The notes below the pieces were generated by a model. That model was not told where the DNA came from. It made no database searches and saw nothing but the letters and a program-made list of their open reading frames with translations. From an uncultured Gemmatimonadota bacterium (GTDB lineage Bacteria; JAAXHH01), in NCBI GenBank assembly GCA_951812955.1, contig OX638340.1:3456001-3520000 (forward strand): a stretch of 64,000 nucleotides of DNA. The letters are read 5' to 3'. Within the stretch, counting starts at the first letter, position 1. Each line of letters starts with the position of its first letter. Made by a program: the position numbers and the translations under genes. Below are positions 11,943-13,616 of the stretch, in pieces.

Positions 11943-13514
11943 ATGACACGCTCGCGTATTGGACTCTTGTGTCTTGTATTTCTGACGGCATCCCTGTTCG
12001 TGATTACCACTTGTGGCAAAGACAGTTCCACGCAATCGACGCAACCGACATCGCCAACACCTCCACCTCCACCTCCACCTCCTGTGGTGTCAGTACCCAC
12101 CAGCATCATAGTCACCCCGTCAACCTCACGGCTTAACTCAATAGGTCAGACCGTTCAGTTGGCTGCAAGTGTCCTTGACCAGAACGGATCGGCGGTCGCC
12201 GGTGCCTCGGCTACGTGGACGAGTGGCGCCGTGGACGTGGCAACGGTCAGCGATCAAGGCCTGGTCACGGCGATCAAGAACGGGTCCGCGGTAATCACGG
12301 CGCGGTCGGGCAGCCTTTCAACAACGGCGAGTATCACAGTGTCACAGACGCCGGGCCGCATCGTTATCGAGCCGCGGATGGCGGAGCTCAAGTCAATCGG
12401 TGAGACCGTACAGCTGACTTCGACTGTTCAGGATCGAAACCAACACCCGGTGTCCGGCGCCGAAGTGACCTGGCAAAGCGGCGACGCGGAAGTTGCGTCT
12501 GTGAGCGATCAGGGATTGGTAACCGCGGTCGGGAACGGGACCGTTCGGATCTCGGCCCGTTCTGGGAGCGCATCTGCATTTATTGAGGTCACGGTCATGG
12601 CTCCGAGTGCGGACAGACCAGTACTGGCCATGTTGTACGAGGCAACAGGCGGCCCGGAATGGACGGACAATACGAACTGGTTGACTGATGCCCCTGTGGA
12701 TGAATGGTACGGTGTTACGGCCAATTCCAAAGGACGGGTTGTGACTCTGAACCTGTTTAACAACAACCTGAATGGTTCGATTCCGATGGAAGTGGGACAA
12801 CTGACCTATATTGAAGACTTGAATTTTAATTCCAATCAGTTATCTGGCGAGATACCCGCTTCGATAGGACAGCTGTCAAATCTTGGCAAGCTGAACCTGA
12901 GCAACAACCGTTTGTCCGGTGGGATACCTGTTTCAATTGGACAGTTGTCCAATCTTTCCGAACTGCTGATCACCTGGAACGACTTGTCCGGTAGTATTCC
13001 GGTTGAAATCGGACAACTGATCCGTCTTGATAAGTTGACGCTCTACAGGAACCAATTGTCGGGCGAGATCCCCCAAGAATTGGGGAAGTTGTCTAATCTC
13101 GTCCAATTACGTATAGGGAATAACCAGTTTACCGGGGGGATTCCCGCGACACTCGGCCAGATGGAGAACTTGGAGGTCATGGCTCTTGAAAACAACAATC
13201 TGGCGGGAGAGATACCCGCCGAGTTGGGACGACTGTCGCAATTGACGATCCTGGAGCTATCACAGAACAAGTTGACCGGAGTCCCTCCATCCGAACTCGG
13301 AAGCCTTTTGAATCTCGTTACTTTACAGCTTGCAAACAACGCACAGATGATTGGACCTCTTCCTGGATCGTATACGAATCTCGATCTGCTTAACCTGAAC
13401 CTGGACGGTACCAACCTTTGCATACCGGCCAGCCCGGAGTTTCAGACCTGGATCGAAGGGATTGATAACGTAACCGCGGACACGTGCGCCGATCCGGAAA
13501 TCGAGGCCCCCTGA
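11943..13514 (+). CDS. LRR lipoprotein (lipobox, poly-Pro linker, Big_2 repeats, one LRR block)
   Basis: Start at MTRSRIGLLCLVFLTASLFVITTCGKDSS; PTPPPPPPPPVVSVP linker; Big_2 repeats; N-cap LAMLYEATGGPEWTDNTNWL...EWYGVT; ~10 plant-type LRRs; C-cap ...GTNLCIPASPEFQTWIEGIDNVTADTC. The gene ends where a second LRR module begins in paralog 6924. A decayed remnant of that module follows the stop (ccactgtacaacgaatcgaacgga ~ ALYNETDGPNW coding). This is consistent with truncation by a 1-nt frameshift. Confidence 0.85.
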   Translation: MTRSRIGLLCLVFLTASLFVITTCGKDSSTQSTQPTSPTPPPPPPPPVVSVPTSIIVTPSTSRLNSIGQTVQLAASVLDQNGSAVAGASATWTSGAVDVATVSDQGLVTAIKNGSAVITARSGSLSTTASITVSQTPGRIVIEPRMAELKSIGETVQLTSTVQDRNQHPVSGAEVTWQSGDAEVASVSDQGLVTAVGNGTVRISARSGSASAFIEVTVMAPSADRPVLAMLYEATGGPEWTDNTNWLTDAPVDEWYGVTANSKGRVVTLNLFNNNLNGSIPMEVGQLTYIEDLNFNSNQLSGEIPASIGQLSNLGKLNLSNNRLSGGIPVSIGQLSNLSELLITWNDLSGSIPVEIGQLIRLDKLTLYRNQLSGEIPQELGKLSNLVQLRIGNNQFTGGIPATLGQMENLEVMALENNNLAGEIPAELGRLSQLTILELSQNKLTGVPPSELGSLLNLVTLQLANNAQMIGPLPGSYTNLDLLNLNLDGTNLCIPASPEFQTWIEGIDNVTADTCADPEIEAP

Positions 13515-13616
13515 CGGCCACTGTACAACGAATCGAACGGACACAAACGTCTTATTCAGGGAGTCAGTCGATTCATCCGTCTATTTAAAGTCTAAACGCG
13601 AAATTGGAGGAGTGCA

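What the first reader, a model, noticed from the sequence alone, without database searches (positions are those of the whole stretch)
13480..13560. LRR paralogs truncated at the same module boundary with decayed downstream remnants
The gene 11943..13514 stops exactly where paralog 6924 begins its second LRR module (...PDPDRVALTALYNETDGPNW). Downstream of the stop, ccactgtacaacgaatcgaacgga still encodes a decayed ALYNE..G N-cap. A 1-nt insertion relative to the paralog (ctgacggccactg vs ctgacggcactg) brings TGA into frame. The gene 4168..5343 ends at the equivalent point (ctgacggcacc after CPNPETEVP*). Together with the leader-only remnants at 13830-13870 and 17320-17360, this indicates frequent truncation or deletion within the family. 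Alternatively it indicates modular extension by 3' cassette addition.
Basis: seen in the sequence. Interest (0 to 1): 0.55.

Follow-up and report, generated by a model that had tools for sequence, protein, structure and literature searches.

The report
Fossil repeat-cap after a stop codon
A short surface-protein gene in a probably sponge-associated Gemmatimonadota bacterium carries, just after its stop codon, a 28-base leftover of the next leucine-rich-repeat module, so it descends from a longer gene cut at a module boundary; this is ordinary gene-family evolution.

Summary
The core observation is real. The 28 nt after the stop of gene 11943..13514 match the start of LRR module 2 in paralog 6924..11750 (25 of 27 aligned bases, one indel). 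Identity then drops to background.

The stated mechanism is wrong. The extra C lies 3' of the TGA. The frame change comes from a net +2 nt upstream of the stop.

Genes 4168..5343 and 11943..13514 do not record two truncations. They share one old event. The same TGA and the same tail (CP-D/N-PE-I/T-E-x-P*) occur in short genes of at least five related assemblies, and three genomes carry the same fossil with the same distal end.

The short genes look functional. Their dN/dS is 0.29-0.51. The AlphaFold model is complete up to the last C-cap cysteine, and only the tail is disordered.

Recurrent truncation is supported at clade level by other genes. Two relatives carry fresh single-base frameshifts at or near this kind of junction with intact modules downstream. 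Others have gained still earlier stops.

The locus between the acyl-CoA synthetase and thiolase genes is highly variable. A ~95% identical strain lacks both the long gene and 11943..13514. Verdict: a well-documented but ordinary case of modular domain loss.

The parts
11943..13514 (+). Short paralog 'g11943', 523 aa. It has a lipoprotein-like signal, two Big_2 domains and one plant-type LRR module with an N-cap and a C-cap.
   Evidence: ORF and translation. Pfam Big_2, LRR_1, LRR_8 and LRR_14. AlphaFold2 mean pLDDT 88.7. Best PDB fold matches are plant LRR receptor ectodomains.
13488..13511 (+). Eight-codon C-terminal tail ADPEIEAP after the last C-cap cysteine (TGC at 13485-13487). It is read in a frame shifted relative to the long paralog's linker.
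   Evidence: Alignments. The tail is conserved as P-D/N-PE-I/T-E-x-P in related short genes. Residues 519-523 have pLDDT below 50.
13512..13514 (+). TGA stop. It is homologous to the out-of-frame TGA inside the codons CTG ACG (Leu-Thr of 'ALTALY') at 8752-8754 of the long paralog.
13515..13542 (+). Non-coding fossil of the N-cap of a lost second LRR module. It reads (R)PLYNESNG in frame 0 and contains one extra C at 13518/13519.
   Evidence: 25/27 identity plus one indel to 8755-8781, then 17/60 beyond. It is the only hit in the window. The same fossil with the same distal end occurs in L001 8811+ and L002 11255+.
6924..11750 (+). Long paralog 'big', 1608 aa. It has three Big_2 domains, three capped LRR modules (long, short, long) and a C-terminal M66-like zinc metalloprotease domain (HELGHNMGLLH).
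   Evidence: The same architecture occurs in a 1644-aa gene of L096.
8739..8789 (+). Coding sequence of the module-2 N-cap (DRVALTALYNETDGPNW) in the long paralog. This is the intact counterpart of the fossil.
4168..5343 (+). Short paralog 'g4168', 391 aa. It ends ...SPCPNPETEVP* at the homologous TGA.
   Evidence: Orthologs 85-95% identical occur in L001, L002, L089 and L091.
5344..5355 (+). Weak in-register remnant after the g4168 stop (CGGCACCTTACA against CGGCACTGTACA). The flank beyond it is the unrelated 'X-type' flank shared with L001b, L089 and L091.
   Evidence: 10/12, P = 3.8e-5 when anchored. Not significant unanchored. The X flank is conserved.
13724..13879 (+). Orphan copy of the ~150-nt LRR-gene upstream element (promoter/5' leader, up to a degenerate RBS and start). 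No LRR gene follows it.
17208..17364 (+). Second orphan copy of the leader element. It lies 173 nt upstream of the thiolase gene.
11836..11920 (+). Leader element attached to g11943. Partial tandem copies lie upstream of the long gene at 6395-6786.
   Evidence: A copy lies upstream of the L002 short gene.
5545..5796 (+). Remnant of the 3' end of a histidine-kinase/response-regulator hybrid gene. It is 79% identical to 16556-16806.
14414..16807 (+). Intact GAF-PAS-HisKA-HATPase-REC-Trans_reg_C hybrid regulator. It recurs next to these LRR genes in related genomes.

Best explanation
The 28 nt after the stop of gene 11943..13514 are a molecular fossil.

1. An ancestor of the short Big_2-LRR genes had at least two LRR modules, like the neighbouring 1608-aa gene.
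2. A small insertion (net +2 nt) arose in the unconstrained linker after the last C-cap cysteine.
3. That shifted the frame onto a TGA hidden in the Leu-Thr codons (CTG ACG) of the next module's N-cap.
4. The rest of that module was then deleted, leaving only its first ~27 nt.
5. A break at a module boundary leaves a complete, foldable protein. The short form was therefore kept, duplicated and exchanged among paralogs by recombination.

Shown: the homology, the frame relations, the conservation across genomes, purifying selection and a complete predicted fold.

Inferred: the order of insertion and deletion, and the ancestral architecture.

The same kind of event recurs in the clade. It is visible because truncations at or near module junctions are tolerated.
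For: Homology and frame relations:
- Homology runs 28 nt past the stop and then ends abruptly.
- It is unique in the window and far beyond chance.
- The fossil encodes the family's most conserved motif (LYNE-S/T-N/D-G) outside any ORF. This makes sense only if it was once coding.

Conservation across genomes:
- The same stop, +2 offset and tail occur in g4168, g11943, L001a, L001b, the L002 short gene and L091/L092.
- The same fossil with the derived AATC and the same distal boundary occurs in L001a and the L002 short gene. The event therefore predates the divergence of these genomes (housekeeping dS 0.39-0.64).

Function of the short genes:
- dN/dS is 0.29-0.51.
- The AlphaFold2 model is confident through the region of the last C-cap cysteine (Cys515). 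Only residues 519-523 fall below pLDDT 50.
- All protease-less paralogs end 1-10 residues after the last C-cap cysteine.

Stages of the process seen elsewhere:
- Intact three-module genes: the window's long gene and the L096 1644-aa gene.
- Fresh frameshifts with intact downstream modules: a -1 shift in the linker of L002 3128..5593, which hits TTGACC, with a 130-aa module following; and a +1 A in GGA(A)CCG of the N-cap in L091/L092, identical in two assemblies, with a 778+ aa LRR-M66 ORF following.
- Later erosion: earlier stops that turn the tail itself into a fossil (L089/L090, L093, L095, L096, L097), and replaced flanks (L094, L097).
Against: - The fossil is 93% identical to the long paralog, while the preceding coding sequence is ~77-81% identical. 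That is better preserved than simple neutral decay predicts. My rough estimate is P ~0.02, from my own arithmetic rather than a tool result.
- The paralogs are mosaic. No reliable tree roots the direction of change, and the long gene groups with g11943 by dN.
- The homology across the 12-nt shifted tail itself is poor.
- The two 'fresh' frameshifts could in principle be assembly errors. L002 comes from what appears to be a long-read assembly.
Confidence: 0.8

Rival explanations
1. Modular extension. The short form is ancestral. The long gene arose when a short gene recombined with, or read through into, additional LRR-protease modules (3' cassette addition, by unequal crossover within the conserved C-cap or N-cap).
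For: - The long gene's module-1 C-cap (EFQIWIEGIDNVTA) is of the short-gene type. The architecturally equivalent L096 1644-aa gene has a different module-1 C-cap.
- By dN the long gene nests with g11943 inside the short-gene group.
- The identity profile is mosaic.
- The locus gains and loses whole genes between strains.
Against: - It does not explain why short genes in three genomes carry an out-of-frame or untranslated N-cap fragment after the stop. That fragment still requires an earlier truncated multi-module ancestor.
- The long gene's junction is a canonical C-x-DRxALxALY linker with no scar.
- The three-module-plus-M66 architecture is itself conserved in L096.
Confidence: 0.1
2. The post-stop match in g11943 is not an old relic. 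It is the end of a recent gene-conversion tract copied from the adjacent long paralog, spilling 28 nt past the stop.
For: - The fossil is 93% identical, against ~77% for the preceding ~1.4 kb.
- The two genes are tandem neighbours.
- Identity along the paralogs is mosaic.
Against: - Between the C-cap and the fossil, g11943 carries the short-gene tail and stop, not the long-gene linker. A single tract is therefore impossible.
- L001a and the L002 short gene have the same fossil, sharing AATC where the long gene has AAAC, and the same distal end.
- L002 has no long paralog at that locus.
Confidence: 0.07
3. The junction is a programmed or high-frequency switch (ribosomal frameshift, stop read-through or phase variation at short C runs) that toggles between short and long surface proteins.
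For: - Indels cluster in the few dozen bases after the C-cap cysteine in many genes.
- Two genes have intact modules one frame away.
- In g11943 the fossil is in frame with the ORF across the TGA.
Against: - Downstream of g11943 only 26 codons remain before a TAA, with no LRR module.
- In L001a and L002 the fossil is in another frame.
- The longest homopolymer is C5, and I saw no slippery heptamer by eye in the displayed junction sequences.
- No Rfam element was found.
- The different variants are fixed in different genomes, not mixed.
Confidence: 0.03

Closest known systems
Domain loss by 3' truncation in paralogous multi-domain genes, leaving a gene relic (a partial pseudogene) next to a functional shortened gene
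   Same: - A frameshift creates a premature stop.
- The downstream coding sequence decays or is deleted.
- A recognisable fragment persists outside the ORF.
- The shortened gene stays under purifying selection.
   Different: - The break sits exactly at a repeat-module boundary and uses a stop hidden in the next module's cap codons.
- The fossil is only 27-28 nt long, yet it is conserved across three genomes.
Eukaryote-like LRR proteins of sponge symbionts and plant-type (PS) LRR ectodomains such as FLS2, MIK2 and HAESA
   Same: - Pfam LRR families match.
- Cysteine-containing N- and C-caps are present.
- The best structural matches are plant LRR receptor ectodomains, E down to 3.5e-20.
- LRR proteins are among the 'eukaryotic-like proteins' discussed in the sponge-symbiont literature that a text search returned. 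I did not read those papers in detail.
   Different: - These are bacterial, probably lipoprotein-anchored proteins with N-terminal Big_2 domains.
- Some carry several capped LRR modules in series and a C-terminal M66-like protease.
- No function has been tested.
Polymorphic toxin (Rhs/CDI) loci with orphan 3' cassettes that recombine onto a main gene
   Same: - Gene architecture is modular.
- Short conserved sequences occur at module junctions.
- The locus is variable between strains.
- The analogy comes from the abstract of PMC3482391 seen and from general knowledge.
   Different: - No downstream orphan modules follow the short genes.
- There are no immunity genes.
- The leftover homology is on the truncated gene, not on a donor cassette.
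- 27 nt is marginal for homologous recombination.

Membership tests
Plant-type LRR proteins (Pfam LRR_1/LRR_8/LRR_14) with capped modules | Tandem ~24-residue LxxLxLxxNxLSGxIPxxLG repeats forming a solenoid | tested here: met
   Pfam hits for all paralogs. The AlphaFold2 model shows a regular strand-helix repeat over residues 258-494. Foldseek top hits are plant LRR receptor ectodomains.
Plant-type LRR proteins (Pfam LRR_1/LRR_8/LRR_14) with capped modules | An N-terminal cap and a cysteine-containing C-terminal cap that close each module | tested here: met
   The N-cap motif (L..LY..T.G..W) and C-cap motif (GT.LC...FQ.W......C) delimit every module. The model has a cap helix at 225-234 and another at 498-505.
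Gene relic / truncated paralog | Significant homology to a paralog's coding sequence, lying outside any ORF and ending abruptly | tested here: met
   25/27 plus one indel, then 17/60. p = 0.001 against shuffles. Unique in the window.
Gene relic / truncated paralog | The relic evolves without coding constraint | tested here: inconclusive
   Only 27 nt are available. It has one indel, and its frame differs between genomes. Its identity to the paralog is nevertheless higher than that of the flanking coding DNA.
Bacterial lipoprotein | A signal peptide ending in a lipobox [LVI][ASTVI][GAS]C | tested here: inconclusive
   A hydrophobic N-terminus is followed by LSTC or ITTC and then GKD. Thr at position -1 is atypical. 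No signal-peptide predictor was available.
Programmed ribosomal frameshift or read-through site | A slippery sequence or stop followed by a long ORF that continues the protein | tested here: not met
   Only 26 codons follow the TGA and no LRR module is present. I saw no slippery heptamer by eye at the L002 or L091 breaks; no formal scan was run.
Phase-variable contingency locus | A long homopolymer or short tandem repeat inside the ORF, with length variants in a population | tested here: not met
   The longest run at the junction is C5. No tandem repeat lies at 13480-13560. Population reads were not available.
Peptidase M66 (StcE-like), for the long paralog only | An HExxH zinc site within an M66-type domain | tested here: met
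   Pfam PF10462, E = 3e-5, 23.6 bits against a cut-off of 20.6. HELGHNMGLLH is present in the translation. This is a weak match.
Polymorphic toxin orphan-cassette system | Downstream orphan C-terminal cassettes with 5' homology stubs and cognate immunity genes | tested here: not met
   Nothing LRR-like or toxin-like follows the short genes.

The most novel reading that the evidence does not exclude
The linker between the C-cap and the next N-cap may be an evolved 'break point'. It has a stop codon hidden in the ALT codons and short C/G runs. Such a point would let these symbionts switch surface LRR proteins quickly, and perhaps reversibly, between short binder-only and long binder-plus-protease forms. 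The retained N-cap stub would then act as a landing site for re-extension by recombination. That would make this a contingency system for host interaction rather than passive decay.
Probability: 0.06. Interest if true: 0.6.

Novelty: new member of a known kind. Interest (0 to 1): 0.3.

Why it matters
The case shows step by step how a repeat-module surface-protein family loses modules without losing function. The steps are a frameshift in an unconstrained linker, a stop hidden in the next module's cap, deletion of the remainder, and further erosion of the tail.

It also marks the stretch between the acyl-CoA synthetase and thiolase genes as a strain-variable hot spot for LRR 'eukaryote-like' proteins in Gemmatimonadota related to sponge-derived genomes. 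That is relevant to how symbionts vary their host-facing surface. For annotation, it warns that 'truncated' LRR genes ending just after a C-cap are likely functional genes rather than pseudogenes.

Tried and rejected
- Exact-sequence look-up of g11943 found nothing.
- The metagenome scan returned only relatives at 50% identity or less, so it gave no population-level alleles.
- A scan of 82 LRR ORFs in all fetched loci found post-stop N-cap motifs only in this clade.
- Rfam and tRNA scans of the window were empty.
- The promoter/terminator scan around the gene end gave nothing above background.
- I tested whether gene 1527..3848 is a kinase-regulator paralog. It is not; it is an AMP-binding acyl-CoA synthetase.
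- I tested whether the X-type flank (g4168, L001b) is homologous to the N-cap or to the Y-type flank. It is not significant unanchored.
- I tried to root the direction of change from pairwise dN/dS and a sliding identity profile. The paralogs are mosaic, so no reliable tree results.
- Read-through or recoding of the TGA is rejected, because only 26 codons follow and the frame differs between genomes.
- An assembly artefact in the window is rejected, because the same end and fossil appear in independent assemblies.

Full report
**What is at the coordinates**

Gene 11943..13514 (+) encodes a 523-aa protein. It has a lipoprotein-like N-terminus, two Big_2 Ig-like domains and one plant-type LRR module closed by an N-cap and a cysteine-containing C-cap. 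It ends ...NVTADTCADPEIEAP*.

Its upstream neighbour 6924..11750 encodes 1608 aa. It has three Big_2 domains, three capped LRR modules (long, short, long) and an M66-like zinc protease domain. At the equivalent point this long gene reads ...NVTATTCPDPDRVALTALYNETDGPNW and runs into module 2.

Gene 4168..5343 (391 aa) ends ...SPCPNPETEVP* at the same point.

**Check of the observation**

- BLASTN and MAFFT carry the homology between the long gene and 11943..13514 through the stop to 13542.
- In register, 13515-13542 against 8755-8781 gives 25 matches of 27 aligned bases and one 1-nt indel. The following 60 nt match at 17/60, which is background.
- The binomial probability of 25/27 is about 2e-13.
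- The sequence with up to 3 mismatches occurs nowhere else in the window, against 0.00 expected.
- An unanchored local alignment beats all 1000 shuffles.
- The remnant reads (R)PLYNESNG. This is the most conserved motif of the family's N-caps.

The central observation therefore stands.

The stop is at 13512-13514. The extra C is at 13518/13519, downstream of the stop, so it cannot have brought the TGA into frame.

The frame difference lies upstream. Between GATCCGGA and CTGACGG the short genes have 12 nt where the long gene has 10. This net +2 puts the ribosome onto the TGA that sits out of frame in the long gene's codons CTG ACG (Leu-Thr of ALTALY, 8752-8754). In 11943..13514 the later +1 restores the original frame, so LYNESNG is in frame 0 after the stop. 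In relatives it is in frame +2.

For gene 4168..5343 the post-stop remnant is only 10/12 in register (P = 3.8e-5). It fades by 19-30 nt and is not significant unanchored.

**One event, not several**

A genome-collection scan found relatives in Gemmatimonadota MAGs. One is named Candidatus Palauibacter irciniicola and others are annotated Gemmatimonadetes or Longimicrobiales. Protein and contig look-ups added more assemblies.

- L091/L092 are ~95% identical to the window across the lactonase gene, the acyl-CoA synthetase gene and gene 4168. The window is therefore from this lineage.
- The short genes of L001 (two genes), L002, L091 and L092 have the tail CPDPEIE-A/T-P* and the same CCCCTGA-C/T-GG stop. 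One L096 short gene has the close variant CTDPEIEAR*.
- L001 7560..8810 and L002 9860..11254 carry the same fossil (TALYNESTG and TALNNESTG). It shares AATC where the long gene has AAAC, and it ends at the same distal position as in the window.
- Housekeeping genes of these genomes differ by dS 0.39-0.64.

The truncation is thus old and inherited. The window's two short genes are two descendants of it. At least four kinds of 3' flank follow the shared stop, and only one of them (Y) keeps the fossil. Flank type does not track gene-body type, and the identity profile along the paralogs is mosaic. This indicates recombination or gene conversion among copies.

**The short genes are genes, not wrecks**

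- Ortholog pairs give dN/dS of 0.29-0.51.
- An AlphaFold2 model of 11943..13514 has mean pLDDT 88.7. It shows two Ig domains and a complete capped solenoid, with a C-cap helix at residues 498-505 and confidence maintained through the last C-cap cysteine (Cys515). Only residues 519-523, in the tail, fall below pLDDT 50.
- Its closest solved folds are plant LRR receptor ectodomains.
- Every protease-less paralog in the window ends 1-10 residues after the last C-cap cysteine (34537..41769 ends ...VVNCQ*, 41799..43454 ends ...VYCEAM*, and 52382..54145 on the minus strand ends ...AGCPDE*). This is the natural end of the domain.

- In L002, gene 3128..5593 stops at ...VHCENTAGRR*. A single-base frame shift in the linker runs into TGA within gcg TTG ACC gcg. 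An intact 130-aa LRR module (EYGREALTALYNGTGGLNW ... GTDLCVP ... NCAANR*) follows in the next frame.
- In L091 and L092, the gene after the thiolase is split by an extra A in GGA(A)CCG of a module-2 N-cap. A 778+ aa LRR-M66 ORF remains intact downstream, and the two assemblies are identical.
- Other short genes have moved the stop further upstream. A +1 C in TGCCC(C)TGA occurs in L093, L095, L096 and L097, and a +1 G in L089/L090. The old tail codons are left as a second-generation fossil.
- L094 and L097 have replaced the tail and the N-cap fossil altogether.
- One L095 gene reads on in another frame.

Together these form a series: intact gene, then fresh frameshift, then deleted remainder with a cap fossil, then fossil lost, then tail lost.

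The most economical reading is survivorship. Indels anywhere else would break the solenoid and be lost. Those in the unconstrained linker, or at the very start of the next N-cap, leave a complete protein and persist. This last step is inference. Among 82 LRR ORFs in all fetched loci, only this clade shows post-stop N-cap motifs.

**Direction of change**

An untranslated or out-of-frame copy of a coding motif in three genomes requires an ancestor in which that motif was translated. Truncation is therefore the supported direction for the short genes. The three-module-plus-protease architecture is independently conserved in a 1644-aa gene of L096.

The window's long gene could itself be partly chimeric. 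Its module-1 C-cap is of the short-gene type, and by dN it groups with 11943..13514. The fossil is also better preserved (93%) than the adjacent coding DNA (~77-81%). Occasional conversion between paralogs may have refreshed it. The data are too few to decide.

**Surroundings**

- The LRR genes sit in a lower-GC stretch between an acyl-CoA synthetase gene (1527..3848) and a thiolase gene (17537..18658).
- Content here differs in every related assembly examined, from a single short gene (L002, L097) to several short and long genes on either strand (L089, L096).
- The ~95% identical strain L091 lacks window 6250-14379, which includes both the long gene and 11943..13514. Its kinase-regulator gene is internally deleted.
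They are orphan copies of a ~150-nt upstream element, also found upstream of the L002 short gene.
- A 252-nt remnant of the kinase-regulator's 3' end lies after gene 4168.

**Verdict**

The mechanism given is wrong in detail. 'Frequent truncation' is wrong for the two genes cited but right for the clade. This is a clear, well-staged example of an ordinary process, namely modular domain loss with a coding fossil, in a strain-variable surface-protein locus.

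Noticed in passing
window 3850-17536 (compare L091, L089, L096, L097, L002): The interval between the acyl-CoA synthetase and thiolase genes is a strain-variable island. A ~95% identical assembly (L091) lacks window 6250-14379, which includes the 1608-aa and 523-aa LRR genes. L091 instead holds a minus-strand M66 remnant and a collagen/AhpC-like gene. Other relatives hold from one to four LRR genes in either orientation.
   Followed up: partly
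window 6395-6786, 11836-11920, 13724-13879, 17208-17364: A ~150-nt upstream element is shared by LRR genes. It has inverted repeats (CTGTTA...TAACAG and GAAC-T-run ... A-run-GTTC). Four partial tandem copies lie before the long gene, and two orphan copies lie before the kinase-regulator and thiolase genes. It may be a promoter/operator for the adjacent OmpR-type hybrid regulator.
   Followed up: partly
window 5545-5796 and 5850-6227 (-): A 252-nt remnant (79% identity) of the 3' end of the hybrid kinase-regulator gene is followed by a small minus-strand ORF. Related genomes (L089, L094) have a 117-aa minus-strand gene in the same position after the intact regulator, and the L089 region matches window 5548-6246 at the DNA level. 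This points to a past segmental duplication or insertion.
   Followed up: partly
L091/L092 18280-21179: A Big_2-LRR-LRR-M66 gene next to the thiolase is split by a single extra A in the GGACCG of its second N-cap. The two assemblies are identical, and the downstream 778+ aa ORF is intact.
   Followed up: yes
L002 3128-5964: An 821-aa Big_2/LRR gene is cut by a 1-nt frameshift in the linker. An intact 130-aa LRR module follows in the next frame. This is either a recent mutation or a long-read assembly error.
   Followed up: yes
window 34537-41769: A 2410-aa protein has about ten capped LRR modules. Their N-caps are nearly identical (DR-D/A-AL-V/I-ALYNATDGPNW), which suggests recent internal module amplification or homogenisation.
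   Followed up: no
window 46815-52364 (-) and 52382-54145 (-): A 1849-aa protein with eight CARDB domains and the same M66-like C-terminal protease as the long LRR gene lies next to another short Big_2/PKD/LRR gene. The protease domain is thus combined with different binding modules.
   Followed up: no
window 5931-6054 and 6229-6289: A 33-nt tandem repeat (3.8 copies, consensus GATGGCGGCGTGCTCTTCGCGCATCTCTTCTCT) resembles the post-stop flank of short LRR genes in L095 and L096. A 13-nt repeat (4.7 copies) lies nearby.
   Followed up: no
window 4168-5343 versus L001 7560-8810: The g4168 orthologs differ by dS ~0.19. The flanking housekeeping genes of the same genomes differ by dS 0.39-0.54. This may reflect exchange of this gene between lineages or a codon-usage effect.
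   Followed up: no
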